Assembly (NCBI GenBank): GCA_022709425.1
Contig: JAKLIW010000005.1
Coordinates: 1,422 to 65,421 of the forward strand
Direction: 5' to 3'
DNA length: 64,000 nt
DNA from: a bacterium
Lineage (GTDB): Bacteria > UBP6 > UBA1177 > JAKLFG01
Position 1 is the stretch's first letter. The number at the start of each line of letters is the position of its first letter. The notes under the pieces were generated by a model, which worked only from the letters and a program-made list of their open reading frames with translations, made no database searches and was not told where the DNA came from. This document shows positions 32,611 to 62,904 of the stretch, piece after piece. The translations under genes were made by a program, and so were the position numbers.

Positions 32611-34785
32611 TTACATCTGATACTCGTAACAGCCCATGTCGGCCGTCGTGGTGCCGATGACCGGCACGTTGACGCGGGCATTCCCTTCAAGGTCGGTGGT
32701 CGGCGCCGGCGTGTCATTGGCGGTATCGATGCAGGGACTGTAGGCGCTCCCGGCGATATCGACCTTCAGATGGAAATCGTTGCCTCCCGCATTGACGAAC
32801 AGCGGATCACCGTGGATGTTGCCGGTTCCGGCGAAATTGCTGTTGGTGGTCATCTCGATATCGCTGTAGGTCGCCGATATCGAACCGCCTCCTGTTTCGT
32901 CGTAGAGCTGACGCGTGTTGTTCCACGTGTTCGTTCCGGTGTTGCCGTAGAGGATGGAATTGACGATGGTGGTGTTGGTGGCGCCCATGTTCGCGATCGC
33001 GCCGCCGTTCTTACCGATGTTCTGCGAGAAGGTACTGTTGGTGACGGTGATGGTCGCGTCATTGGCGCGGATCGCGCCGCCGTTGGCCGTTCCCGAAGAG
33101 TTCAACGAGTTGTCGTAAAATAGGGTATTGGTAACGGTCAGGGTGCGGCCGTCGAAGACATTGACCGCCCCGCCGCTCGCTTCGGAGCTGGTCATGGTGG
33201 TCTGTGAAACGCTGTTGTCATGGAATACGCTGTTGGTGATATTCAGCGCTCCCGAGCCGGTTGCATAGATCGCGCCGCCGAATCCGGTGTCAGCGGTGCC
33301 GATGTTGACGATATTGTTGCTGAACAGGCAGCGTTCTATGGTTAGGGTGCCGCCGTTGATGGCGCTGATGGCACCGCCGCGATAATTGCTGACGCTTTGT
33401 GTGACCACGCTATTGTTGGTGAATGTTGAGTTGCGGAGGGTCATCGAAACGCCGTCAACATAGAGCGCGCCGCCTTCTACATAGTCGGTCATGCCGCTGC
33501 TGCTGCCGTTGATCGCCTTGCCGCCGGTGACGGTGAAGCCGTCGACCACCGCATTGGCGGCTCCCGTCAGCACATGCGACACCTGTGTGGCGCTTCCCGA
33601 CGACTGGTGGCCGTCGATGGTGGTCACGTTCGTGGTCCAGTTACGGCCGTCACGAAGCCACTCGGTTCCGGCGAATCCGCCGTAGAGGGGGACTTTACCG
33701 CGCAACTGAATGGTGTTGCCGGTGCCGGTCTTGTAGATATAGTAGGTGCCGGCGGCGACCCAGACCTCGCAGGTGGCCGCGCTCGATCCGTTGGCCGAGT
33801 CTATTGCCGCCTGTATGTCGGAATAGGCGGCGGCCCACGAAAGGCCGGTGGGTGAACCGGCGCTTACCGGTTTTACGAACCGGACGCAGATCTCGCAGTC
33901 GGCGCCCGCGAAACCGCTGTCGCAACATTTGCCCTGCGTTTCGCTACAGACATAGTTTCCGCAGGGATTTCCGGGATGATCGCTACATTTGCCGCTGTTG
34001 TTGCAGGTCTCGGCGCCGTTGCAGAAAGAGCCGTCTTCGCAGGAGTCGCCGCTTTCCCAGTAACCGGGATCGCAGGCGCCGTTACCGTCGCAGGCATCGG
34101 CGTCATCGCAGGGGGCGCTCGTCTGATCGCCGCAGGGGGTGGCGATCGGTTCGAACTCGTCGGGTGGACAGGTCGGGCTTGATCCGGTACAGGTCTCAGC
34201 GATATCGCACTCCGCGTCGACCGCCGGGCGGCAGACAGTGCCGGAGCGGAAATGACAGCCGTCACAACAGGCGCCGGTGGTGCACTGACAGGTATCGACA
34301 TCGGCATCGGAGGTGGTCGCGTCGTCGGTCACCACCGCACCGTCGTCGGTCACCACTGCGCCGTCGTCGGTCGTTACCGCGCCATCGTCGGTCGTTATGG
34401 CGCCGTCATCGGTGACGGTGTCATCGGTCACCACATCGTCGGTCACCACATCGTCGGTCACCACATCGTCGGTTACGGTGTCATCGGTTACCACATCATC
34501 GGTCACGGTGCCGTCGGTCGCGCTATCGTCATCGAGCAGGGGAAGGTCCCCGTCCAGCGGCTCGGTGTCGCCCTGCGCACTGTCCTCGTCGGTCGTGATG
34601 CCGTCGGCCAACGGATCATCCGTGTCGTCGATCAGACCATCGTTGATGAGCGGGTCGTCATTATTGCCGTTATCGTCGGTATCGGTGTTGCCCGTCCCGT
34701 TATCACGCGGAGGATATATCCGACGGGAGCCATCCTCGCATGCGAGGATGACTACAAACAGCAACGCCGACACAAGCCATCTCAT
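32611..34785 (-). CDS. Lipoprotein: D/T pentapeptide-repeat linker, Cys-rich module, then right-handed parallel beta-helix domain
   Basis: Real start is the ATG at 34785 (GGGAGG upstream; MRWLVSALLFVVILAC lipobox). The upstream part of track ORF 32611..36111 is antisense to purF. Has a (V/A)TDD(T/V)V tandem repeat array, an about 130-aa segment with 27 Cys, and beta-helix coils (NSTFTNNS, ERCLFSNN, ITNSVFHDNS, VTNTLFYDNS, VTNSTFSQN, IVNSILYGN). Confidence 0.7.
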   Translation of the reverse strand: MRWLVSALLFVVILACEDGSRRIYPPRDNGTGNTDTDDNGNNDDPLINDGLIDDTDDPLADGITTDEDSAQGDTEPLDGDLPLLDDDSATDGTVTDDVVTDDTVTDDVVTDDVVTDDVVTDDTVTDDGAITTDDGAVTTDDGAVVTDDGAVVTDDATTSDADVDTCQCTTGACCDGCHFRSGTVCRPAVDAECDIAETCTGSSPTCPPDEFEPIATPCGDQTSAPCDDADACDGNGACDPGYWESGDSCEDGSFCNGAETCNNSGKCSDHPGNPCGNYVCSETQGKCCDSGFAGADCEICVRFVKPVSAGSPTGLSWAAAYSDIQAAIDSANGSSAATCEVWVAAGTYYIYKTGTGNTIQLRGKVPLYGGFAGTEWLRDGRNWTTNVTTIDGHQSSGSATQVSHVLTGAANAVVDGFTVTGGKAINGSSSGMTDYVEGGALYVDGVSMTLRNSTFTNNSVVTQSVSNYRGGAISAINGGTLTIERCLFSNNIVNIGTADTGFGGAIYATGSGALNITNSVFHDNSVSQTTMTSSEASGGAVNVFDGRTLTVTNTLFYDNSLNSSGTANGGAIRANDATITVTNSTFSQNIGKNGGAIANMGATNTTIVNSILYGNTGTNTWNNTRQLYDETGGGSISATYSDIEMTTNSNFAGTGNIHGDPLFVNAGGNDFHLKVDIAGSAYSPCIDTANDTPAPTTDLEGNARVNVPVIGTTTADMGCYEYQM
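34316..34520 (-). repeat. In-frame 15-nt tandem repeat array encoding (V/A)TDD(T/A/V) pentapeptide repeats
   Basis: About 13 consecutive 15-nt units, three of them identical (gtcaccacatcgtcg), inside the beta-helix lipoprotein gene. Confidence 0.85.
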
Positions 34786-52926: not shown

Positions 52927-54450
52927 ATGAATAAGTTCGGCGTATGGATGCTCTTGACGGCATTCGCGGTGCTTTTTTCCGCTTGCGGCGACGACAAGAA
53001 AACGGCCACCGATGCGGATGGGACACCCGATGAAGCGACGACCGATCAAGCCGTCACCGACGATACGGTCACCGATACCGCCGTTACCGATACCGCCGGT
53101 ACCGATGATGCGGTCGCCGACGAGGCCGTGACCGATGAGGCGGCGACCGACGATATCGTCACCGACGATGCGCAGACCGATGAACAGATCGGTGACGATA
53201 CAACGATCAACACCGACTACGACATCGTCTATCCCGATGATATCGCGATGAGCCCGGTCGATCCCTACGACGGCACCTACGGCTGGGAGATCATGAAAGA
53301 GGGGTATCCGGTGAACGATACCTGGGATGCCCTGTCGTTCGAATGGGACTACTTCATGATCCATAACGAGGATGATTCCTTCAGCGGTTCGGTCGGCTAT
53401 CTGGTCGCCAATCCGCGCGGCAAGCAGATACTCGGCGGCATGCTCGGCAAACTGGTCCCGGGCGGCGGGAACATCGCCATCGCGGGGCAGTTCGACAAGG
53501 ACCTTCCGCCGGTCGCCGACTACGAGAATTTCGATCCCGACAACGGTCACACCACCACCCTCTCGGGAACGGAGCGGTCGCTGTGGGTCGAGAACACCGA
53601 CAAAGGCTACTGGGGCCGGATGACGCCCGATCCGATCGACAATTCGATGTTGCTTGAGGGGAAGACCGGCAACTTCGAATGGGAACTGACGGTTCGTCAG
53701 GATTGGACGGTGCTCACCACCGGCGCCGACACCTTCGTCAAGGTGACCGACGATCAGATAGACACCAAGATCATGGGCATTGCCGCGGTCCAGCAGTGGA
53801 ATGTCCACATGTTCTGGCCGCGCACCAAGATCACCGGCTGGATAAAGGATCTGCGCGACGGCACCGAATATCCGATAGATGCCCACGGCTACCGCGAAAA
53901 TTCGTGGGGTCGCTGGGCCTTCAATCAGGGAGGCTGGGATTTCGGGACCCACTCCGATGCCCGCTCGAAGGTGATGTTCGGTTGGCAGAGCTACCATTTC
54001 AACTCGACGCGGCTCGACTATCTCGATATGGGTTTCATCGACAACGGCGAGTATAAACTGGTCAACTTCCGCGCCGATCAGGGACAACTCGGCTGGAAAC
54101 ACGATCTCTGGTCGTTCGATCCGGTCGCCCGGCAGTGCGTCCCGCGCGACACCACGCTCATCGCCAAGAACGCGAACTACCGCGTCGACACCTACATCAC
54201 CATCGGGCAGGGGCAGGTGGCGATGCTCTCCGAGGCGACCGCCACGGTCAAGAAGTATGTCATCATGATACAGATACCGTGGTTCAAGGGGACCATCACG
54301 CGGCTGTCGGACAACACCGTCATCGCCACCTTCGAAGGGCGCGGCGGCGGCGAGTTCTCGACCGAACGGGCCGCCGAAGGGACCACCACCATGACCGACG
54401 CCGACTGCGCCGCGTGGGGCGCGAAATTCTCGGTACCGTTCCCGCAGTAG
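52927..54450 (+). CDS. Lipoprotein with (V/A)TD(D/E)(T/A)V repeat linker and unknown about 400-aa domain
   Basis: ATG at 52927 (GGGGAGGA RBS). Lipobox LFSAC. Has 15-nt-periodic repeats at 53040-53170 encoding AVTDDTVTDTAVTDTAGTDDAVADEAVTDEAATDDIVTDD. Confidence 0.65.
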   Translation: MNKFGVWMLLTAFAVLFSACGDDKKTATDADGTPDEATTDQAVTDDTVTDTAVTDTAGTDDAVADEAVTDEAATDDIVTDDAQTDEQIGDDTTINTDYDIVYPDDIAMSPVDPYDGTYGWEIMKEGYPVNDTWDALSFEWDYFMIHNEDDSFSGSVGYLVANPRGKQILGGMLGKLVPGGGNIAIAGQFDKDLPPVADYENFDPDNGHTTTLSGTERSLWVENTDKGYWGRMTPDPIDNSMLLEGKTGNFEWELTVRQDWTVLTTGADTFVKVTDDQIDTKIMGIAAVQQWNVHMFWPRTKITGWIKDLRDGTEYPIDAHGYRENSWGRWAFNQGGWDFGTHSDARSKVMFGWQSYHFNSTRLDYLDMGFIDNGEYKLVNFRADQGQLGWKHDLWSFDPVARQCVPRDTTLIAKNANYRVDTYITIGQGQVAMLSEATATVKKYVIMIQIPWFKGTITRLSDNTVIATFEGRGGGEFSTERAAEGTTTMTDADCAAWGAKFSVPFPQ

Positions 54451-55834: not shown

Positions 55835-56757
55835 AAGGGCATGTCGTCGGACTACATCTCTCTGAGAAGAAAGGGACCATCAAGACGGCGGTCGGCGCCG
55901 CCGAGTTCACCGCGCTGGGTATCGCGGGCGACGCCCACGCCGGGAACTGGCACCGGCAGGTGAGTCTGCTCGACGCGGAGGCGGCCAATCGTTTCACCGA
56001 GGCGGCCGGTATCGTGGTCGCGCCGGGAGAATTCGCCGAGAATGTCCTGCTGGAAGGGATCGATCTTGCGCAGGCCGCGTTGCTTGACCGTCTTATCATC
56101 GGCCCCGTGGAACTTGAGATAACGCAGATAGGCAAGGAGTGCCACGGCGCCGGGTGCACCGTTTTTCAGCGGGTCGGCGAGTGTCTCATGCCCAAACAGG
56201 GACTGTTCGCCCGGGTCATCACGCCGGGTATCGTGACGGTGGGGGACAAAGCCGAACTCATCCAGCGCACGCTTTCGGTCCATGTGGTGACGCTTTCGGA
56301 TCGCTGTTCGACGGGTGAGCACGAGGACCGCTCCGGTCCCCGCATCGCCGAGATGGTCACAGCCCATTTCGCCGGCACACGCTGGCATCTGGCCGTCGAC
56401 AGGACCGTCATCCCCGATGAACCGGAGATGCTGGAACAGATACTGGAACACGACCGCGACGAGATGACCGATATCGTCATCACGACCGGCGGCACCGGCA
56501 TCGGTCCGCGCGACATCACCCCCGAGGTGGTCATGGGGCTTGCCGATATCGAGATCCCCGGCATCATGGAATACATCCGCATCAAATACGGCGCCGACAA
56601 ACCGGCGGCGCTCTTGTCGCGCAGTATCGCCGTGGTCATGGACAACACGCTCGTCTATGCCCTCCCGGGAAGTCCCCGCGCCGTCGAGGAGTATATGACC
56701 GAGATACTCAAGAGCTTGGAACATACCCTCATGATGCGCCATGGTCTGGGACATTGA
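55831..56757 (+). CDS. MOSC-domain / MogA(MoaB) molybdopterin adenylyltransferase fusion protein
   Basis: N-terminal MOSC-like beta-barrel (about 150 aa, conserved Cys in ECHGAGC). C-terminal MogA/MoaB domain with ITTGGTGIGPRDITPE. Confidence 0.75.
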   Translation: MKGHVVGLHLSEKKGTIKTAVGAAEFTALGIAGDAHAGNWHRQVSLLDAEAANRFTEAAGIVVAPGEFAENVLLEGIDLAQAALLDRLIIGPVELEITQIGKECHGAGCTVFQRVGECLMPKQGLFARVITPGIVTVGDKAELIQRTLSVHVVTLSDRCSTGEHEDRSGPRIAEMVTAHFAGTRWHLAVDRTVIPDEPEMLEQILEHDRDEMTDIVITTGGTGIGPRDITPEVVMGLADIEIPGIMEYIRIKYGADKPAALLSRSIAVVMDNTLVYALPGSPRAVEEYMTEILKSLEHTLMMRHGLGH

Positions 56758-57283
56758 TCTGGGCGACCTTATCCGCCGGCTTATCGGTAAGCCGCGCGTT
56801 CTGAAAACCACCCCTGTGCCGCCCATGCCATCCGACTGGAAATTCACCTACGATGATCTGGTGGCCGAGATGAAGGCGGGGAAACGCGCCTCCGTCGGCC
56901 GCGCCGAGATGGAGTGGGCGAAGGAATACGAACGGAGTCTTATCCCCGCCGATATGCGTTTTCCGCAGAAAAGCGATCTCTACGAATCGCTCGCTGATCA
57001 AACGGTCGAATACATCACCGCGTGGGCGGCGCCCTACAGCGGCGGCGGCACTGGCACGCTTTTCAAAGGGGAGCAGGTGTGGATACATTCCGCGCCGCGT
57101 GATGAGAAGCCCATCGGCGAATATGCCCTGCCGGTCGAATACAGGAAGGTCGAGGAGCGGATGGTCCCCGAGCAGGAACGAACCTCGTCCAAGTACGGCG
57201 GCTTCTATTTCTACTTCACCACCATCGAACTCAACACCAACTTCAAACTCGTCGCCACCGGATTCAAGGGGAAGGGGCGGTAG
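56741..57283 (+). CDS. Hypothetical protein (180 aa)
   Basis: ORF overlaps the previous gene by 17 nt. No family recognised. Normal GC. Confidence 0.35.
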   Translation: MVWDIDLGDLIRRLIGKPRVLKTTPVPPMPSDWKFTYDDLVAEMKAGKRASVGRAEMEWAKEYERSLIPADMRFPQKSDLYESLADQTVEYITAWAAPYSGGGTGTLFKGEQVWIHSAPRDEKPIGEYALPVEYRKVEERMVPEQERTSSKYGGFYFYFTTIELNTNFKLVATGFKGKGR

Positions 57284-57384
57284 ACGGACACCCTCAGTCG
57301 GCTTTGCCGACAGCTCCCTGCGACAAGGAGCCAATATACCGGAAGGATGCGTGCCGCATATATATAATAAGGTATAGCGTTTTC

Positions 57385-57413
57385 TTGAACTGAAACAGGA
57401 TTTGGGATACAGT
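57385..57413 (+). promoter_or_regulatory. Sigma70-like promoter TTGAAC-17-TACAGT upstream of the Sel1-like gene
   Basis: -35 TTGAAC at 57385-57390 and -10 TACAGT at 57408-57413. AAGGAG RBS at 57430. Confidence 0.45.
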
Positions 57414-57441
57414 ACGCCATCTTTGAGGGTAAGGAGTCGCC

Positions 57442-59100
57442 ATGCGGAACATTCTGATTCTTCTGGTTGTCTTGGTTGTGAGCCTGTCGCTTTTCGCCGA
57501 AGAAAAGAAGGCTGTGTCAAAGAACGCCGTCGCGTCCGATATCGGCCAACAGGCTTTGGAAGAACCAAAGCTGGTTGCCCCCAAGGCGCTGGTCGAGAAA
57601 AAAAAGGAAGCGGCAGCGGTAAAGGAATTCAAGCCCGAAAGTGTGGTCGGCATCGATGTGAATGCCGATCTATTGGTTGCTTACGATGCGGCGGTAAAGG
57701 CCGACAAAGTGGGGCAGGAAAATCCGAAGGCGGCAATAACTGCATGGGGAAAGGTTCTTTCATTCAAGGAAAAGAATCCCTATCTGGCGACGGCAACCGA
57801 ACGCAAGACGGCATGGGAGCGGTTCATCCGCGTCAAAGACATCAACGAAAAATATGAAAAGACAGCGCGCATGGATCGTTACGGTAGCTTGTTTCCCGAT
57901 ATTGTCGTTAAAAATTGGGAGATAGTGGCGGCGCTCAAGGAAGACAACGCCTATCTGCAAATCGCCGAACAACGGATCGCTGAGTGGAAAGTATTCATCG
58001 CACAGGTCGACGATTATCAAGCGAAGAAAAAATTGTTCGCTGAACAGCGCGAAAAAGACCGCGCAACGCTTATCAAGATATTGCCGCTCGAAGTGGTTGG
58101 CCAAGATCAGAAACGAGAAATGTTGATCAAATACCTTGCGGTCTATGCGCCCTATTACGGCGTCGAAGACCTTGAAACGCTTTTCTCGGAACTCAAGAAC
58201 ATCATGCTTTCGAGCGCGTTCCGGCAACAAATATGGACACCGCAATACAAAGATACGCTTGAAAAAGAATGCGCCGCGAACAAACCGGCCTCTTGTTACC
58301 TTGCCGCCTCCATGACCGAAAAGGCCGATCCTCTGAAAGCGCAGGAACAATATCGTGTGGCTTGTAAGGGCAATGTGGTTACCTCCTGTTTGAAGGTTGG
58401 CGAACTGACGAAAGGGAAAGAGGACACCGTTGCCGTCGACTCCTATTGGACCGCCTGTGCGTGGGGAAGCAATGCGGGTTGTTACGAACTCGCTCAATTG
58501 GTTGAAAAGGGAGCGGGCACCGAAAAGTCGCTTTTCTTCGCGGCCAATCTTTATGAGAAAAGTTGCAAGTCGGGAGTTGCGGCGGCATGCGATATGGTAA
58601 AGAAGACGCGGGACGAGGGACGAGCCGAAAAAGAACGGCAGGCGCAACAACCGGCATCCACTGTAGTTGCTACGCCCGAGCCGGCGAAGGCGGCGGAACC
58701 GATACCTCCGGCTGGTCCCAGCTTCACCGCGAACCGTCCTTATTTCTGGTATGGTGTCGGTTTGGCGGCATTCGGACTGGCCAGCGTCGGCACCGGAGCC
58801 GGTATGTTCGGCATGGCCGCTAGTAGTTACGATAATTACAATAAAATGGTAACGCCTGAGGCACTAGCGGGAATTATTGGTTTGTCGGAGGAACGCAAAA
58901 AGAGCTACGTCGCAAAAGCGGACGGCTATAAAAAAGACGGTACCGCTTACAACAACGCCGGTATTGCCCTAACGGTGATCGGCGGTGCCGCTGTTGCGGG
59001 AGGAGTAGTGCTGATGGTCCTGACCGGGGAAGATGAACCGAAGGTGGGATTCTTCTTTGACGGTCGTTCGTTCATGGCCAGTTACCGTGTTAACTTCTGA
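57442..59100 (+). CDS. Secreted Sel1-like (Hcp-type Cys-bracketed) repeat protein with C-terminal membrane anchor
   Basis: Signal peptide. Four Cys-pair bracketed helical repeats (CAANKPASCYLAA, ACKGNVVTSCLKVG, ACAWGSNAGCYELA, SCKSGVAAACDMV), as in Sel1/HcpA-like repeats. Gly-rich TM segment near the C-terminus. GC is lower than the genome average. Confidence 0.6.
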   Translation: MRNILILLVVLVVSLSLFAEEKKAVSKNAVASDIGQQALEEPKLVAPKALVEKKKEAAAVKEFKPESVVGIDVNADLLVAYDAAVKADKVGQENPKAAITAWGKVLSFKEKNPYLATATERKTAWERFIRVKDINEKYEKTARMDRYGSLFPDIVVKNWEIVAALKEDNAYLQIAEQRIAEWKVFIAQVDDYQAKKKLFAEQREKDRATLIKILPLEVVGQDQKREMLIKYLAVYAPYYGVEDLETLFSELKNIMLSSAFRQQIWTPQYKDTLEKECAANKPASCYLAASMTEKADPLKAQEQYRVACKGNVVTSCLKVGELTKGKEDTVAVDSYWTACAWGSNAGCYELAQLVEKGAGTEKSLFFAANLYEKSCKSGVAAACDMVKKTRDEGRAEKERQAQQPASTVVATPEPAKAAEPIPPAGPSFTANRPYFWYGVGLAAFGLASVGTGAGMFGMAASSYDNYNKMVTPEALAGIIGLSEERKKSYVAKADGYKKDGTAYNNAGIALTVIGGAAVAGGVVLMVLTGEDEPKVGFFFDGRSFMASYRVNF

Positions 59101-59115
59101 GGGGGAGAATAGACC

Positions 59116-60354
59116 ATGAGAATGACGCTCTTTCTTACAGTCGTTCTGGCCGGATTCTTGTTCGTGGGCTGCGCCGAACCGAAAGCGGTTGATTGGAGTC
59201 AACTCTTCCCTGATAAAGACGGGGTGGTGGCGTCCGACACCGACGAATCGGTGAGCGATGATATCCAGACCGATGAAACGATGCCGGATGAAGCAACGGA
59301 CGAAGTGATTTCCGATGAGGCGGGCGACGAGGTGCAACCGGACGAAACCGATACGGTGGAGCCGGAAGAAGATGTCATTGAGCCAACGGACGACACGACC
59401 GAACCGCTGGACGATACGACCGAAACTGAGGATGATGCGCTGGTTGTTGACGACGAGACCCCCGATACGGTTGATGCAGATACCGTTGATATTGATATGA
59501 CCGAGACGGACACGGTGGATATTGATGTCGTGGATGTGGATACACTAGATATCGACATGGCAGATAATGATCTTGCCGATTTTGATGATGATTATGAGGT
59601 CGATACTCCAGAGGCCGATATAATTATACCAGACAGTGACGATAACATGATTTCTATTCCCGCGGGACAGTTCATGATGGGATGCAACACCTCTCTTGAC
59701 TCCAATTGTGCAAATGATGAAAAACCATACCACGCCGTTACCCTTTCAGGATATAAAATAGACAAGCATGAAGTAACTGCGGGAGAATTTGCGGTATGCG
59801 TGGCAGACGGTGCCTGTAATAACAGTGGTGATCGGCAATATTATGAGAATTCTGAGAATTCAAGCTGCAATTTAAATGCCTCAAATAAGGGGACACATCC
59901 GGTTAACTGCGTGACATGGTATGGAGCAAAGGCTTACTGTGTTTGGCTTGGGAAAAGGTTGCCCACAGAAGCGGAATGGGAAAAGGCGGCACGTGGTACA
60001 GAGGGTCAAGTCTATCCATGGGGCAACCAAACGGCGACTTGCGCTTTGGCAAACCTTAGTAGTTGTGGTAGTGGGACTGTGCCTGTCGAGAGTATTGAGG
60101 CGGGGAAAAGTCCTTACGGTATTTACGAATCTGCCGGCAATGTTGGTGAATGGGTTAATGATTATTATGACAGTGCATACTATGAAACATCGCCCAGTAA
60201 TGACCCGCAAGGGCCGGCATCGGGAACTAACCGGTCCTTAAGAGGAGCCTCGTGGGGAAGTGGCGCAGTTAATTTGAGGTCTTCGAACCGATATACCTAT
60301 CTGCCAACAAACTATAGTGTTTATGACGGGTTTCGTTGTGCAAAAAACAATTGA
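59116..60354 (+). CDS. Lipoprotein with acidic D/T/E repeat linker and formylglycine-generating-enzyme (FGE/SUMF1-type) domain
   Basis: Lipobox FLFVGC. About 150-aa acidic low-complexity region. C-terminal domain with HEVTAGEF, WYGAKAYCVWLGKRLPTEAEWEKAARG and RGASWGS motifs typical of the FGE-sulfatase fold. Confidence 0.75.
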   Translation: MRMTLFLTVVLAGFLFVGCAEPKAVDWSQLFPDKDGVVASDTDESVSDDIQTDETMPDEATDEVISDEAGDEVQPDETDTVEPEEDVIEPTDDTTEPLDDTTETEDDALVVDDETPDTVDADTVDIDMTETDTVDIDVVDVDTLDIDMADNDLADFDDDYEVDTPEADIIIPDSDDNMISIPAGQFMMGCNTSLDSNCANDEKPYHAVTLSGYKIDKHEVTAGEFAVCVADGACNNSGDRQYYENSENSSCNLNASNKGTHPVNCVTWYGAKAYCVWLGKRLPTEAEWEKAARGTEGQVYPWGNQTATCALANLSSCGSGTVPVESIEAGKSPYGIYESAGNVGEWVNDYYDSAYYETSPSNDPQGPASGTNRSLRGASWGSGAVNLRSSNRYTYLPTNYSVYDGFRCAKNN

Positions 60355-60363
60355 GAGTGGATC

Positions 60364-61095
60364 ATGTGTGAATACAACACGGAAAAAATAAACGAAGAAA
60401 TTTGTGAACTATGGAAGAGACATTTTGGTGATAATGAAAATGTCCATATGCCGATGCAGTATCCGGCTCTTAAAAAGGACGCGCTTCTTTTTGTCGGTCT
60501 TAATCCCAGCTTCAGCGATAAGTTTTTTTCCCAATTAGGAAAGAAAATGACATCTTGTCAAGGCATTGATCACGAAGAATTTTACGAGTGGCCAAGAAGT
60601 AAGAAATATGACCCACAAAAGGACTATGAGATAACAAAATTCGCAAAAGAAGAATATCCATATTCTCGAAAGTTCAGAGATATATCTAAGGAATTAGGCA
60701 TGGAATGGGAGCATATTGACTTGTTCTTCAATCGTTGCACCTCGCAAAAAGATTCCCAAAAAGAGTTTACACGACAGAAAAATAAAGAAGATATCGAACT
60801 GACAGAGTTTGCGCTTAAACAGATAGCGCTTTCGACTCGATTAATAAGCGAGATATGTCCCAAAATCATTGTTGTTGCCAATGCTCTTGCGTCAGATATA
60901 TATCTTCAATATATGAAGCCAGAGCCCGATGAATTGGCCGGGCATCATTTTACCAATATCAATGGAAAAAAAGTCCCTATTTTTTTAGCCTCGATGCTTA
61001 CCGGCCAAAGAGCGATGGATAAATATTCACTAGATAGGCTAACATGGCATATCAAAAGGGCATTCGGGTTGCATCCGGGGTCGTCGAGCGACTAG
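60364..61095 (+). CDS. Hypothetical protein in low-GC (about 37%) segment; possible UDG-superfamily-like fold
   Basis: No signal peptide. LLFVGLNPS near the N-terminus and LHPGSS at the extreme C-terminus resemble UDG-superfamily motif A (GxNPG) and motif B (HPS). Confidence 0.3.
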   Translation: MCEYNTEKINEEICELWKRHFGDNENVHMPMQYPALKKDALLFVGLNPSFSDKFFSQLGKKMTSCQGIDHEEFYEWPRSKKYDPQKDYEITKFAKEEYPYSRKFRDISKELGMEWEHIDLFFNRCTSQKDSQKEFTRQKNKEDIELTEFALKQIALSTRLISEICPKIIVVANALASDIYLQYMKPEPDELAGHHFTNINGKKVPIFLASMLTGQRAMDKYSLDRLTWHIKRAFGLHPGSSSD

Positions 61096-61129
61096 CCGGA
61101 GTCCGTCCTTCATTTTACGAATCCGCAGA

Positions 61130-61246
61130 CATTCATCATTGACCATTTATCAGTTGAGCGGGGAGTTGAGCGGGGAGTTGAGCGGCGGCAGGTCGCCTGT
61201 TGAGGGTTGAAAGGGGGAGAAGCGGCACCGCCGCTTGACAGATGCC
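61130..61246 (+). repeat. Copy A of an about 120-bp repetitive element (MITE/REP-like) ending in an outward TTGACA
   Basis: cattcatcattgaccattt...(gagttgagcgg)x3...GGCGACAGGTCGCC-type hairpin...GCGGCACCGCCGC hairpin...TTGACAgatgcc. Near-identical to copy C at 62430. Confidence 0.8.
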
Positions 61247-61635
61247 TAACGATTTCGTTTCTTTGATGCCGATATCGCTTTCTTCCGAGCGATTCCGCTG
61301 AGAGACTTCGGAACAGGAAGTTCCCGGCTATCTTGTTCCAGCAGGCGATGCTCACGACCGAGTTCCCGCGCAAGTTCCTCCTCGGTGGGCAAATAAAGCA
61401 TGTACTTGGAAGCGAAAAGGCGTTTACCCTCTTTCAGCACCGAGTATTTCGCTATGGTTTCATTCTTCTTGGCGCAGAGTATCAAGCCGATCGTCGGATT
61501 GTCGCCATCGACCTTGAACAGGTCTTCATACATACGGACATAACTGTCCATCTGCCCCACATCCTGATGGGTCAATGTTCCATCCGCAGGCAACGGCCTC
61601 TTCTTCGTAGCGAGGCGGGGGTCGGTCCTCGACAT
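61246..61635 (-). pseudogene. DUF1016/YhcG-type PDDEXK nuclease remnant (C-terminal about 130 aa only)
   Basis: DVGQMDSYVRMYEDLFKVDGDNPTIGLILCAKKNETIAKYSVL...FASKYMLYLPTEEELAREL matches the C-terminal hallmark of YhcG/DUF1016 proteins, which are about 340 aa. The N-terminal two-thirds are absent. The apparent 5' end of the track ORF is translated from repeat copy B. Confidence 0.6.
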
Positions 61636-61651
61636 TAGACATTTCTCTTTG

Positions 61652-61702
61652 CATTCATCATTGACCATTTAACATTTAACAGGGGATGGGGAGTTGAGCG
61701 GC
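61652..61702 (+). repeat. Copy B (5' portion only) of the repetitive element
   Basis: gcattcatcattgaccatttaacatttaacaggggatggggagttgagcgg matches the first about 50 nt of copies A and C. Confidence 0.75.
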
Positions 61703-61917
61703 TATTTTGTCTTTGACGAAGAACCGGCGATCTTTTTCACGATATTGGCGACCTTGGTCCCGGCATACAATTTCCGGCGGTCTTCGGTGTAGTCACCGGA
61801 GCCGGCATCGAGTTGCCGCATGAAGCGGATAAACCCGGCCACGCCCATCCGATCAAGGAGCGCCCGGTATCCGACCTCTCTCAATTTCGCATCGGTCATG
61901 GTTCTTACTTCACTCAT
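61702..61917 (-). CDS. Small protein (about 71 aa) overlapping the 3' end of the PIN gene; putative toxin-antitoxin partner
   Basis: MSEVRTMTDAKLREVGYRALLDRMGVAGFIRFMRQLDAGSGDYTEDRRKLY. Start at 61917 overlaps the PIN stop by 8 nt. Family not recognised. Confidence 0.4.
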   Translation of the reverse strand: MSEVRTMTDAKLREVGYRALLDRMGVAGFIRFMRQLDAGSGDYTEDRRKLYAGTKVANIVKKIAGSSSKTK

Positions 61918-62362
61918 ATATCTCCTCCGCCACAAAATTCATCGGGTTCATGATCGTCAAGGAAAGGATTGATGAAAGCTCGCCGCTTTTTTTCAGGATC
62001 GCCTGATCGGTCGTTATGAACACATCGCACCGCCGGTCGGCCGAGGCAAGATGCAAGGCGTCCATGCCGTGGATACCTTGTTTCTCCAGTTTCCCCGCAA
62101 GAGCGGCGACCTTCTCGTCGACGGAAATGATGTCGTCCGCCAGAGCCAGTATCTGTTCGACCTTCATCCGCTTTATCGGATCGGGCATGTTCGCTATCTC
62201 GTAGATGACCGCGTCGCTGAGAAGGAATTTGTATGTTCCTTTCTCGCAGCGGGCAAGAATGGCGACGACCGCTTCCGCCTCCAATCGTATCCGTTCGTGG
62301 GACTGGTCGTCAAATGGACGACACAACGAACACACATCGAGATAAATCGTCTTCTTGCGCAC
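61910..62362 (-). CDS. PIN-domain protein (VapC-like toxin)
   Basis: GTG start. Conserved acidic residues in IYLDVCSL (Asp near the N-terminus), GMDALHLASA and DVFITTD (C-terminal Asp). Confidence 0.75.
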   Translation of the reverse strand: MRKKTIYLDVCSLCRPFDDQSHERIRLEAEAVVAILARCEKGTYKFLLSDAVIYEIANMPDPIKRMKVEQILALADDIISVDEKVAALAGKLEKQGIHGMDALHLASADRRCDVFITTDQAILKKSGELSSILSLTIMNPMNFVAEEIYE

Positions 62363-62429
62363 GGCGACACCGCTACCAAGTTCAACGCACTATATCGGGA
62401 AAATGGAGCGATGTCAACCGGAGTCGTGT

Positions 62430-62551
62430 CATTTGTCATTTGCCATTTAGCATTTATCGGGGGATGGGGAGTTGAGCGGGGAGTTGAGCGGCGACAGGTC
62501 GCCTGTTGAGGGTTGAAAGGGGAGAAGCGGCACCGCCGCTTGACAGATGCC
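62430..62551 (+). repeat. Copy C of the repetitive element
   Basis: catttgtcatttgccatttagcatttatcgggggatggggagttgagcggggagttgagcggcgacaggtcgcctgttgagggttgaaaggggagaagcggcaccgccgcttgacagatgcc. Confidence 0.8.
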
Positions 62552-62568
62552 CGCCGTTAGGGTATCAT
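62540..62568 (+). promoter_or_regulatory. Sigma70-like promoter TTGACA-17-TATCAT; the -35 is supplied by repeat copy C
   Basis: -35 TTGACA at 62540-62545, 17-nt spacer, -10 TATCAT at 62563-62568. GAGGAGGAGG RBS at 62581-62590 and ATG at 62598. Confidence 0.6.
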
Positions 62569-62597
62569 GCCGGTGATTGTGAGGAGGAGGTAATAAA

Positions 62598-62837
62598 ATG
62601 TCCCCGCGCGTCGCAGAGGTCACGCCGAACGCCGACTACACGGTGACGATAGTGTTCACCAACGGCGAACGACGCATATTCGATGTGAAACCCTATCTCG
62701 ACAAGGGATTCTTCAAAGATCTGCGCGATGCCGCCCTTTTCCGGTCGGTCAAGCCGTTCCTCGGCAGTATTCAGTGGCAGGGCGGTCAAGATTTCTGTCC
62801 CGACACGCTGTACGCCGACTCGGTCCCGACAAGATAA
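62598..62837 (+). CDS. DUF2442-family small protein
   Basis: 79 aa. Pattern VTIVFTNGERRIFDVKPYL...IQWQGGQDFCPDTLY matches the DUF2442 consensus. Confidence 0.6.
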   Translation: MSPRVAEVTPNADYTVTIVFTNGERRIFDVKPYLDKGFFKDLRDAALFRSVKPFLGSIQWQGGQDFCPDTLYADSVPTR

Positions 62838-62847
62838 TTCTCTCCCA

Positions 62848-62875
62848 TTGACAACCAATCCGCCGTCGCTATAAC
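62848..62875 (+). promoter_or_regulatory. Sigma70-like promoter TTGACA-16-TATAAC upstream of the FmdB zinc-ribbon gene
   Basis: -35 TTGACA at 62848-62853, -10 TATAAC at 62870-62875. AGGAGG RBS at 62893-62898. ATG at 62905. Confidence 0.55.
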
Positions 62876-62904
62876 AAAGGCAGTGCTTTTTCAGGAGGAG
62901 CGCG

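What the first reader, a model, noticed from the sequence alone, without database searches (positions are those of the whole stretch)
61130..62556. Three copies of an about 120-bp MITE/REP-like element carrying hairpins and an outward TTGACA -35
Copies A (61130-61246) and C (62430-62551) are near-identical and in direct orientation. Copy B (61652-61702) retains only the 5' about 50 nt. The element contains a tandem 11-12-nt motif (gagttgagcgg x2-3), two short GC hairpins (GGCGAC-agg-GTCGCC and GCGGC-acc-GCCGC), and ends with TTGACAgatgcc. In copy C that TTGACA pairs with a downstream TATCAT to form a near-ideal promoter for the DUF2442 gene. Such elements can mobilise promoters and mark recombination hot spots. 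It is not obviously related to named REP/ERIC/BOX families.
Basis: seen in the sequence. Interest (0 to 1): 0.55.

Follow-up and report, generated by a model that had tools for sequence, protein, structure and literature searches.

The report
Low-copy mosaic repeat at island joints
A roughly 145-base non-coding repeat found only in one uncultured bacterial lineage occurs three times at the joints of a small accessory-gene island and once elsewhere in the same genome; it is a new but ordinary small intergenic repeat that marks recombination joints, and one copy probably supplies half a promoter.

Summary
Copies A (61130-61246) and C (62430-62551) are about 98% identical over their shared 87 nt, and B (61652-61701) has only the 5' part. 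Each full copy has four parts: a CATTNNN heptamer array, a GGGGAGTTGAGC 12-mer array, two GC hairpins, and a final TTGACAG. A fourth copy lies on another contig of the same MAG (L012). Two relatives have an empty site there, so about 144 nt is present or absent, with no target-site duplication and no terminal inverted repeats.

The local copies are not three independent insertions. A-C similarity runs about 45 nt further left, into a decayed copy of the PIN-operon promoter. B travels with the PIN/antitoxin cassette in a relative. All three copies lie in a 5.6-kb island that this relative lacks.

No match turned up in Rfam, the GTDB species representatives, IMG/VR, PLSDB or the phage collection, and JGI metagenomes gave only one further exact core match. 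It is therefore low-copy and lineage-restricted. It does not meet the MITE, REP, attC or pdif definitions, and in architecture it most resembles BOX/BIME-type mosaic repeats.

The copy C junction, TTGACA-17-TATCAT, is a credible promoter for DUF2442, but this is untested. Interest is low to moderate.

The parts
61086..61129 (+). Left extension of copy A. It holds a decayed copy of the -35 region of the PIN-operon promoter (GAGCGActagCCGGAGTC, against GAGCGAtgtcaaCCGGAGTC beside copy C) plus irregular heptamers. It overlaps the last codons of the 243-aa ORF.
   Evidence: Local alignment of A against C runs 61086-61246 / 62406-62551. Alignment with B and L027.
61130..61246 (+). Copy A, full. Parts: heptamers 61130-61150; 12-mer array 61151-61183 (2.8 units); hairpin 1 at 61184-61197 (GGCGGCAGGTCGCC); G-rich spacer 61198-61219; hairpin 2 at 61220-61236; TTGACAGATGCC at 61235-61246. 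Its last base is the first base of the CTA triplet (61246-61248) that reads as the TAG stop of the YhcG fragment on the minus strand.
   Evidence: nhmmer E = 8.7e-37.
61246..61580 (-). 5'-truncated YhcG/DUF1016 PDDEXK nuclease pseudogene. Only profile positions 81-156 of 157 of the C-terminal domain remain. It is cut off at the B module.
   Evidence: Pfam PF06250, E = 8e-19, residues 30-103 of the 140-aa ORF. Nearest homologues are only about 80% identical.
61610..61701 (+). Copy B, the left module only: heptamer array (61633-61679, up to 6 units), GGGGAT, and one 12-mer (61688-61699). It is followed directly by the CTA triplet (61702-61704) that reads as the TAG stop of the 77-aa gene on the minus strand. 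It is a stable part of the toxin-antitoxin cassette.
   Evidence: The same module in the same position in relative L027. nhmmer left-module hit 61617-61701, E = 2.8e-19.
61702..62362 (-). PIN-domain gene (61910-62362) followed by a 71-77-aa partner gene (61702-61935), a putative toxin-antitoxin pair. The cassette, about 61610-62431, is 90.6% identical to L027 of a relative, where its neighbours are different.
   Evidence: Pfam PIN, E = 1.4e-5..
62389..62417 (-). Promoter-like site for the PIN operon: TTGACA-17-TATAGT, 11 of 12. It is conserved in L027.
   Evidence: Alignment with L027.
62430..62551 (+). Copy C, full. Parts: heptamers 62430-62457 (4 units); GGGGGAT; 12-mers 62466-62489 (2.2 units); hairpin 1 at 62490-62503; spacer 62504-62524; hairpin 2 at 62525-62541; TTGACAGATGCC at 62540-62551.
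   Evidence: nhmmer E = 8.3e-35.
62540..62568 (+). Hybrid promoter-like site. The -35 TTGACA lies inside copy C and the -10 TATCAT lies 17 nt downstream, at or just beyond the element's edge. It is followed by the ribosome-binding site GAGGAGGAGG and the DUF2442 start codon at 62598.
   Evidence: 11 of 12. Only about 0.04 such matches are expected by chance in the 2.9 kb scanned. Sequence.
62598..62837 (+). DUF2442 gene, the last gene of the island.
   Evidence: Pfam PF10387, E = 1.6e-12. Island boundary.
57274..62893 (.). A 5.6-kb accessory island (GC 50% against 59% for the window) that holds all three copies. It is absent from relative L028, where the 180-aa gene is followed after 18 nt by fmdB.

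Best explanation
The element is a lineage-restricted, low-copy, non-coding mosaic repeat of about 145 nt. It has two modules. The left module is a variable array of CATTNNN heptamers followed by 1-3 GGGGAGTTGAGC units. The right module has two short GC hairpins around a G-rich spacer and ends in TTGACAG.

It has spread at least once as a small unit to an unrelated intergenic site in the same genome, by a mechanism that leaves neither terminal inverted repeats nor a target duplication.

In the window the copies act mainly as patches of homology (50-120 nt, 86-98% identical, all in direct orientation) at which accessory modules have been joined, duplicated and truncated inside a 5.6-kb island. 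The PIN/antitoxin cassette natively carries the left module at its 3' end. Recombination between such modules and full copies best explains four things: the order A - YhcG fragment - B - toxin-antitoxin cassette - C, the loss of the YhcG 5' half, the mosaic sequence of B, and the decayed promoter remnant beside A.

As a by-product, the conserved TTGACA at the right end of copy C lies 17 nt from a TATCAT and probably serves as the -35 of the DUF2442 promoter.

What is shown: the copies, their boundaries, the empty sites, the cassette in another context, the absence of the island from a relative, and the promoter motifs. What is inferred: that the L012 difference is a gain, that recombination was the mechanism, and that the promoter is active.
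For: - Copies and anatomy.
- Fourth copy: at L012:2625-2768, 92-94% identical over about 100 nt, with unrelated flanks. The neighbouring proteins carry the same MAG's locus tags and accession series (PLV42_, HOW5xxxx).
- Empty sites: relatives L016 and L029 have the same lipoprotein/DAG-kinase gene pair with a 146-nt intergenic region and no element.
- Island: window 57274-62893 is absent from relative L028.
- Cassette: the toxin-antitoxin cassette with a B-like half-element sits beside an AAA_21 ATPase gene in relative L027. Its homology to the window ends at the left edge of C (62431) and at about 61610.
- Flank copied: A-C similarity extends into the flanking promoter DNA.
- Mosaic B: its first 20 nt are identical to A and the next 30 nt are closer to C.
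- YhcG is truncated at B.
- Low copy and restricted range: only one further exact match of the 27-nt core in 241 million JGI metagenome records. The 12-mer-pair scan of the GTDB species representatives returned only chance hits. Nothing in IMG/VR, PLSDB or the phage collection. No further copy in about 292 kb of held sequence by nhmmer, and no other non-coding repeat family in the window.
- No recombinase or transposase among the genes called from window 51910 to about 8.4 kb past its end.
- Promoter: 11 of 12 matches, 17-nt spacing, correctly placed. Chance expectation is about 0.04. The genome's other promoters are canonical TTGACA types and are conserved across relatives.
Against: - Only four full or partial copies in one genome, plus one half-copy in a relative, were seen. 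The complete MAG could not be searched at the DNA level, so copy number is bounded only indirectly.
- The two empty-site relatives are close to each other. The L012 difference is therefore a single event whose direction (gain or precise loss) rests on parsimony.
- No transposition mechanism or enzyme was identified.
- The strong conservation of the right module (97-98% between A and C, 92-94% with L012), and of TTGACAG even where no -10 follows, could reflect a function I did not detect, such as a protein-binding site or a small RNA.
- The heptamer and 12-mer arrays look like binding-site arrays.
- No expression data exist for the promoter.
Confidence: 0.5

Rival explanations
1. The element, or its left module, is the recombination site of a gene-cassette system analogous to integron attC sites or Acinetobacter pdif sites. 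Each cassette would be gene(s) plus an element at the 3' end, read on the minus strand. An unidentified site-specific recombinase would insert and excise cassettes at the element.
For: - On the minus strand the order is element C, PIN/antitoxin, B, YhcG fragment, A.
- The stop codons of the antitoxin-like gene and of the YhcG fragment abut B and A directly.
- The toxin-antitoxin cassette moves together with its B module, and its homology ends exactly at element edges.
- B-cassette-C has the layout of attL-insert-attR: a partial left copy and a complete right copy.
- Toxin-antitoxin modules are typical cargo of integron arrays and dif modules (PMC6449649).
Against: - No integrase or other recombinase lies within about 10 kb on either side.
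- In L027 the cassette has a half-element at one end only.
- The attC architecture is not met. GTTGAGC fits GTTRRRY, but its inverted partner is GCTTGAC rather than RYYYAAC, the order is reversed, and the element is not an imperfect palindrome overall.
- No 28-bp XerC-spacer-XerD site is recognisable (inspection).
- The A-C duplication includes flanking promoter DNA, which homologous or segmental events explain more simply.
- The L012 copy carries no cassette.
Confidence: 0.12
2. The element is a host-functional unit: a cis-regulatory platform in which the heptamer and 12-mer arrays are binding sites for a DNA-binding protein (for example the antitoxin), or a small non-coding RNA gene. It would have been duplicated because it is useful.
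For: - The tandem direct repeats plus one inverted copy of GTYRAGCGG (12 matches in the window against 3.9 expected, 8 of them inside the elements) look like operator or iteron arrays.
- Copy C and the L012 copy each lie between divergent promoters.
- The right module is highly conserved.
- The only hairpin-1 substitution keeps pairing as G-U on the plus strand.
- Several GGA-containing G-runs are present.
Against: - The element is absent from the orthologous sites of relatives, which keep the same genes and promoters. It is therefore dispensable.
- No Rfam match.
- Folding energies are not significantly better than shuffled sequence on either strand: z = -1.65 to +0.16 for the whole element, and -0.9 to -2.6 for the right module.
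- No promoter or terminator frames the element itself.
- Its orientation relative to neighbouring genes is inconsistent.
- Copy A faces only a pseudogene.
Confidence: 0.15
3. It is a classical MITE or REP/REPIN family: a non-autonomous transposon mobilised in trans by an IS transposase or a RAYT, with many copies elsewhere in the genome.
For: - It is small, intergenic and dispersed to at least two loci, with a clean presence/absence difference.
- Short GC hairpins are present.
- Logan assemblies break at the copies.
- In copy C a 10-nt, 90% inverted repeat (TGTCAACCGG / CCGCTTGACA) brackets the extended unit.
Against: - No terminal inverted repeats in A or at the L012 insertion.
- No target-site duplication.
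- G+C 57-62%, not AT-rich.
- It does not fold as one long hairpin.
- Only one additional exact core match in JGI metagenomes, and none in another 61 kb of the window or 8 kb beyond it.
- The inverted repeat around C involves the toxin-antitoxin cassette's own -35 box, which is present in L027 without the element.
Confidence: 0.08
4. The element has no mobility of its own. All copies, including L012, arose by segmental duplication, gene conversion or patchy homologous replacement after DNA uptake. The element is simply neutral DNA that hitch-hiked with accessory cassettes.
For: - The local copies clearly share duplicated flanks.
- Copy number is low.
- No transposition hallmarks.
- The region upstream of the DAG-kinase promoter is a synteny break point in several relatives.
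Against: At L012 only the roughly 144-nt element differs from the empty sites. Both flanking genes are retained and no cargo or extra flank came with it. That is hard to obtain by ordinary homologous exchange.
Confidence: 0.12

Closest known systems
BOX elements of Streptococcus pneumoniae (boxA - variable boxB array - boxC) and similar mosaic intergenic repeats such as enterobacterial BIMEs
   Same: Both are composite, modular, non-coding and intergenic. Both have conserved end modules separated by a tandem array whose unit number varies between copies: here 12-mers x1-3 and heptamers x3-6. Both can influence neighbouring gene expression. The BOX architecture and its effects are described in PMC3049150.
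   Different: No sequence relationship is claimed or was seen. BOX has more than 100 copies per genome and inverted-repeat-like ends, and folds into a stable stem-loop. This element has about 4 known copies, no terminal inverted repeats and non-significant folding. The tandem units are far shorter (7 and 12 nt, against boxB units that I recall as about 45 nt).
REP / REPIN elements mobilised by RAYT transposases
   Same: Both are short GC-rich palindromic units in extragenic space, and neither leaves a target-site duplication. The right module contains two inverted copies of GTYRAGCGGCGG, each part of a small hairpin.
   Different: REPINs are symmetrical doublets that fold into one long hairpin, occur in tens to hundreds of copies, and accompany a RAYT gene (PMC3116915, PMC3337134). 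Here the 39 nt between the arms do not pair, an asymmetric left module is attached, copy number is very low, and no RAYT was seen in the sequence available.
Correia elements (Neisseria) and other promoter-donating MITEs or IS ends
   Same: Both have an outward-facing promoter hexamer at the element end that can create a hybrid promoter with flanking DNA. Correia insertions are reported to generate functional promoters (background section of PMC3049150).
   Different: Correia elements have 26-bp terminal inverted repeats (PMC3049150) and, from my own knowledge, TA target duplications and high copy number. None of these is met here.
Integron attC sites and Acinetobacter pdif (Xer) modules
   Same: Both are repeats that sit between small accessory cassettes, including toxin-antitoxin pairs. 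The gene-plus-repeat unit is found in different contexts (PMC6449649, PMC13141974).
   Different: There are no R''/L''-L'/R' palindromic architecture, no intI, no 28-bp XerC/XerD site and no alternating site orientation. The copies here are all direct, and one cassette end in L027 lacks a site.

Membership tests
MITE | Terminal inverted repeats | tested here: not met
   No terminal inverted repeat in A or at the L012 insertion. The only internal one is 8-12 nt. The 10-nt inverted repeat around extended copy C uses the toxin-antitoxin cassette's own -35 box.
MITE | Target-site duplication | tested here: not met
   Comparing the filled site (L012) with the empty sites (L016, L029) shows no duplicated flank. 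The flanks of A and C also differ.
MITE | AT-rich and highly base-paired | tested here: not met
   G+C is 57-62%. RNA folding z-scores are -1.65 to +0.16.
MITE | Many dispersed copies and a related autonomous IS | tested here: inconclusive
   Four copies at two loci of the MAG. Only one extra exact core match in JGI metagenomes. No transposase among the genes called from window 51910 to about 8.4 kb past its end. The full genome could not be searched as DNA.
REP / REPIN | Two inverted REP palindromes plus a spacer folding into one long hairpin | tested here: not met
   The inverted arms AGCGGCGG / CCGCCGCT flank 39 unpaired nt. The folds show two separate short hairpins, or a weak 12-bp outer stem.
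REP / REPIN | High copy number and an associated RAYT gene | not testable with these tools
   The whole MAG is not available as DNA. The indirect evidence points to low copy number.
BOX-type mosaic repeat (architecture only) | Conserved end modules separated by a variable number of tandem sub-units | tested here: met
   12-mer array: 2.8, 2.2, about 2 and 1 units in A, C, L012 and B. Heptamer arrays: 3-6 units.
BOX-type mosaic repeat (architecture only) | Sequence homology to boxA, boxB or boxC | not tested
   No BOX sequences were at hand. Membership is not claimed, only an architectural analogy.
Integron attC | R'' (RYYYAAC) ... R' (GTTRRRY) inverse core sites bounding an imperfect palindrome | tested here: not met
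   By inspection. GTTGAGC fits GTTRRRY, but its inverted partner is GCTTGAC and lies 3' of it. The element as a whole is not palindromic.
Integron attC | Adjacent intI integrase, attI and Pc | tested here: not met
   No Phage_integrase-type gene among the genes called from window 51910 to about 8.4 kb past its end.
pdif / Xer modules | 28-bp XerC arm, 6-bp spacer, XerD arm, in alternating orientation around modules | tested here: not met
   By inspection. The B minus strand has AAATGTTAAAT, 9 of 11 to a XerD arm that I recalled from memory, but no XerC arm or ATAA/TTAT dyad. All copies are direct.
Any Rfam RNA family | Covariance-model match at or near the gathering score | tested here: not met
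   No hit at gathering thresholds in the whole window. Only noise-level snoRNA hits at E up to 10.

The most novel reading that the evidence does not exclude
The half-element (heptamer array plus GGGGAGTTGAGC) is the attachment site of a previously undescribed cassette-shuffling system in a deep uncultured bacterial lineage. Small modules such as the PIN/antitoxin pair would carry it at their 3' end and integrate into full elements, giving the observed partial-copy - cassette - full-copy layout. The recombinase would be encoded elsewhere in the genome.
Probability: 0.1. Interest if true: 0.65.

Novelty: new member of a known kind. Interest (0 to 1): 0.27.

Why it matters
The element shows how a small accessory island is built in an uncultured, unnamed bacterial lineage. 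MreB is at most about 68% identical to any named taxon.

Within the island, short direct repeats sit at every joint between a movable toxin-antitoxin cassette, a nuclease pseudogene and orphan genes. That predicts ongoing deletion and duplication that metagenomic read data could reveal.

It is also a clean example of a repeat that fails the MITE, REP and attC definitions yet shows an insertion polymorphism. It may supply a -35 box to a downstream gene.

Practically, such repeats break short-read assemblies. The Logan contigs end inside them.

None of this is unexpected for bacterial genomes, so the value is descriptive rather than conceptual, unless the cassette-site reading proves true.

Tried and rejected
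- GTDB representatives: a scan for the 12-mer pair GTTGAGCGGGGAGTTGAGCGG gave 9 hits, all in unrelated high-GC genomes and matching only the tandem 12-mers. These are chance or coding repeats, not the element.
- Other collections: IMG/VR scans with the right-module core, the left-module pattern and the PIN protein found nothing. blastn of copy C against PLSDB plasmids and the phage collection found nothing.
- Rfam: nothing at gathering thresholds, and only noise at permissive thresholds.
- Structured RNA or DNA: z-scores are not significant, and four sequences are too few for covariation. The idea was dropped.
- Integron attC: I considered it because GTTGAGC fits GTTRRRY and GCCTAAC follows copy A. 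I rejected it on architecture and the absence of an integrase.
- Xer/pdif site in the heptamers: rejected by inspection.
- Sigma-54 promoter (CGGCAC-N6-TTGAC): rejected because the spacing is wrong.
- Type III toxin-antitoxin RNA repeats and a CsrA-sponge RNA: considered, but there is no framing promoter or terminator. G-quadruplex: the loops are too long.
- Looking for YhcG plus an A-like cassette elsewhere: the nearest homologues are only about 80% identical fragments on short contigs, so I did not pursue it.
- fmdB relative P0009: not syntenic, so uninformative.
- Look-ups of P0003 and P0020, which are on a related 228-kb JGI contig, returned nothing.
- The MreB search to name the lineage returned only unnamed close relatives.
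- NCBIfam and permissive Pfam scans of the 243-aa, 77-aa, 552-aa and 180-aa proteins gave nothing useful.
Full report
**Observation**

- Copy A (61130-61246) and copy C (62430-62551) are in direct orientation. They are 97-98% identical over their shared 87 nt.
- Copy B (61652-61701) matches only the 5' 50 nt. It is 86% identical to C, and its first 20 nt are identical to A.
- The diagnostic motifs occur nowhere else in the 64-kb window, and shuffled controls give about zero.
- Tandem Repeats Finder confirms the 12-nt unit: 2.8 copies in A and 2.2 in C.

- The 5' part is itself a tandem array of CATTNNN heptamers, with 3-4 units in A and C and up to 6 in B.
- A-C similarity starts further left, at 61086 and 62406.
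- The first hairpin is really a 5-bp stem with a CAGG loop, and one pair is G-T in A and L012. The second hairpin extends to 7 bp, AAGCGGC-ACC-GCCGCTT.

**Anatomy**

A full copy reads, 5' to 3' on the plus strand:

- [CATTNNN] x 3-6
- a G-run
- [GGGGAGTTGAGC] x 1-3
- hairpin 1, GGCGRCAGGTCGCC
- TGTTGAGGGTTGAAAGGGG(G)AG
- hairpin 2
- GACAG(ATGCC)

The last 12-mer and the 3' end are an imperfect inverted pair, GTTGAGCGGCGG and CCGCCGCTTGAC. The plus strand is G-rich, with GC skew +0.18 to +0.34 and G+C of 57-62%.

Predicted folding is not significantly better than shuffled sequence on either strand. Z-scores are -1.65 to +0.16 for whole copies and -0.9 to -2.6 for the right module. No Rfam family matches.

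**Gene context**

The order along the plus strand is:

- a low-GC (39%) 243-aa orphan gene (+)
- copy A
- a 5'-truncated YhcG/DUF1016 nuclease pseudogene (-), whose stop codon overlaps the last base of A
- copy B, which is followed directly by the stop codon of a 71-77-aa gene (-)
- that gene, preceded on its own strand by a PIN-domain gene (-)
- the pair's promoter, TTGACA-17-TATAGT, at 62417-62389 (-)
- copy C
- TTGACA-17-TATCAT at 62540-62568 (+)
- DUF2442 (+), then fmdB (+), then rodA (-)

No recombinase or transposase is encoded among the genes called from window 51910 to about 8.4 kb past its end.

**Source and copy number**

The window's proteins belong to an unclassified TPA MAG with locus tags PLV42_. 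A JGI contig, Ga0209507_1000692 (L013), is 100% identical to the last 12 kb of the window.

A scan of 241 million JGI metagenome records for the 27-nt core shared by A and C found one further place, on contig Ga0209507_1000244 (L012). There only the element matches: 94% to A and 91% to C, with unrelated flanks. The neighbouring proteins carry PLV42_ tags and the same accession series, so this is the same genome at another locus.

Other searches found no further copies:

- The scan of GTDB species representatives with the 12-mer pair returned only chance hits to the tandem 12-mer in high-GC genomes.
- IMG/VR, PLSDB and the phage collection gave nothing.
- nhmmer profiles of the full element and of the left module found no other copy in about 292 kb of held sequence.
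- The window has no other non-coding repeat family.

The element is therefore real, dispersed to at least two loci, but low-copy and lineage-restricted.

**Presence or absence at the second locus**

In L012 the element lies between a divergently transcribed lipoprotein gene and a diacylglycerol-kinase gene.

Two relatives keep the same gene pair: L016 from SRR24236060 and L029 from SRR30464888. Their kinases are 91-94% identical to the MAG's. Both have a 146-nt intergenic region with no element.

The alignments place about 144 nt (L012:2625-2768) as the difference. It starts with the heptamers and ends about 25 nt past TTGACAG. There is no target-site duplication and no terminal inverted repeat.

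The kinase's own promoter, TTGACA-18-TATAAT, is conserved in all relatives whether or not the element is present. The element is therefore dispensable there. Gain in the MAG lineage is the parsimonious reading, but the two empty-site relatives are close to each other, so this counts as a single event.

**History of the window locus**

- In relative L028 (80-92% nucleotide identity in the flanks), the 180-aa gene at window 56741-57283 is followed after 18 nt by fmdB. The window carries a 5.6-kb island, 57274-62893, between them. Its GC is 50% against 59% for the window. All three copies lie in the right-hand third of this island.
- The PIN/partner cassette recurs in the same relative strain in a different context, beside an AAA_21 ATPase gene (L027). 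It is 90.6% identical from window 62431, exactly the left edge of C, to about 61610.
- That cassette includes a B-like half-element, heptamers plus one diverged 12-mer. It abuts the partner gene's stop codon at the same nucleotide. B is thus an old component of the cassette, not a fresh truncation.
- The extra A-C similarity to the left is a decayed copy of the cassette's -35 region: GAGCGActagCCGGAGTC in A against GAGCGAtgtcaaCCGGAGTC beside C. B has a similar remnant.

So the local copies were propagated together with flanking DNA. That points to segmental duplication or recombination between copies rather than three independent insertions. The truncated YhcG gene ending at B, and the A-like/C-like mosaic of B, fit the same picture.

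**Promoter claim**

TTGACA is conserved in all three full copies. Only in C is it followed at 17 nt by a good -10 (TATCAT), a strong ribosome-binding site and a start codon.

About 0.04 matches of this quality are expected by chance in the region scanned. The genome's other promoters are of the same canonical type. The hybrid promoter is therefore credible, but it is specific to copy C and untested. TTGACAG is conserved even where it cannot act as a -35, which suggests it belongs to the inverted GTYRAGCGG motif rather than being kept for promoter function.

**Interpretation**

The best-supported reading (confidence about 0.5) is a lineage-specific, low-copy mosaic intergenic repeat. It has moved at least once as a small unit. 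In this island it serves mainly as homology for joining, duplicating and deleting accessory modules, and it incidentally donates a -35 at copy C.

The rivals are:

- An attC- or pdif-like cassette recombination site (0.12). The gene-plus-half-element unit and the partial-cassette-full layout are suggestive. Against it: there is no recombinase, no defined core site, a one-ended cassette in L027, and a copied flank.
- A host regulatory platform or small RNA (0.15). The arrays look like binding sites. Against it: the element is absent from orthologous sites and shows no structural or transcriptional signals.
- Neutral hitch-hiking DNA with no mobility of its own (0.12).
- A classical MITE or REPIN family (0.08). 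The defining features were tested and not met.

**Comparison with known elements**

In architecture the element most resembles composite repeats such as the pneumococcal BOX element, which has conserved end modules around a variable tandem array and affects neighbouring expression (PMC3049150). In having GC-rich palindromic units and no target duplication it resembles REP/REPINs (PMC3116915, PMC3337134).

It fails the membership tests for MITEs, REPINs, attC and pdif sites (PMC6449649, PMC13141974) and matches no Rfam family. I file it as a new member of the general kind 'small interspersed intergenic repeats'.

**Limits**

- The complete MAG could not be searched as DNA, so copy number is bounded only indirectly.
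- The direction of the L012 event, the recombination history and the promoter activity are inferences.
- The lineage could not be named. Close MreB relatives are all unnamed, and named taxa are at most about 68% identical.

Noticed in passing
window 57274-62893: A 5.6-kb island (GC 50% against 59% for the window) lies between a conserved 180-aa gene and fmdB. In relative L028 these two genes are 18 nt apart. Besides the repeat region, the island carries a 552-aa protein with a weak Sel1 hit, an FGE-sulfatase-domain protein and a 243-aa orphan.
   Followed up: partly
window 60364-61095 (+): A 243-aa ORF with GC of 39%, no Pfam or NCBIfam hit, and a singleton cluster among 15 billion proteins. 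It is probably recently acquired. Its last codons overlap the left extension of copy A.
   Followed up: partly
window 61246-61580 (-): A YhcG/DUF1016 PDDEXK nuclease pseudogene that keeps only the C-terminal half of the nuclease domain. Its last 30 or so residues are not covered by any homologue, so the 3' end may also be rearranged.
   Followed up: partly
L027:2515-2590 and L028:10233-10263: The related strain (SRR24236060) has a different repeat, GCAACCTCATCCTTCACCTTCTCCGRAACGG. In L027 it continues into GGAGAAGG and a CCCTCTCC/GGAGAGGG hairpin. It lies downstream of fmdB and downstream of the toxin-antitoxin cassette, and the contigs end in it.
   Followed up: no
L012, L014-L018, L029 (upstream of the DAG-kinase promoter): The region just upstream of a strongly conserved TTGACA-18-TATAAT promoter is a synteny break point. 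The neighbour is a lipoprotein gene in three genomes, ExbD/TonB in two loci (L014 and L015), and a Ser/Thr kinase plus a resolvase in another.
   Followed up: partly
window 53012-53211, 34305-34540, 59210-59560: Long 15-nt tandem coding repeats (Asp/Thr-rich linkers) occur in several predicted secreted proteins, including the FGE-sulfatase-domain protein next to the island.
   Followed up: no
L019 and L020, 14.6-16.2 kb: Reverse-transcriptase-Cas1 fusion genes lie in contigs of a more distant relative that shares a near-identical fmdB zinc-ribbon protein.
   Followed up: no
L027:1680-1712: In the relative, the toxin-antitoxin promoter carries the palindrome TGTCAAgtctctggTTGACA overlapping the -35. 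This is a plausible operator. It is replaced in the window by the heptamer array of copy C.
   Followed up: no
L003-L011: The tandem 12-mer GGGGAGTTGAGC x2 occurs by itself in unrelated high-GC genomes (Streptomyces, Kitasatospora, Opitutaceae, Caldilineaceae and others) without the rest of the element. It is probably a coding or chance repeat.
   Followed up: partly
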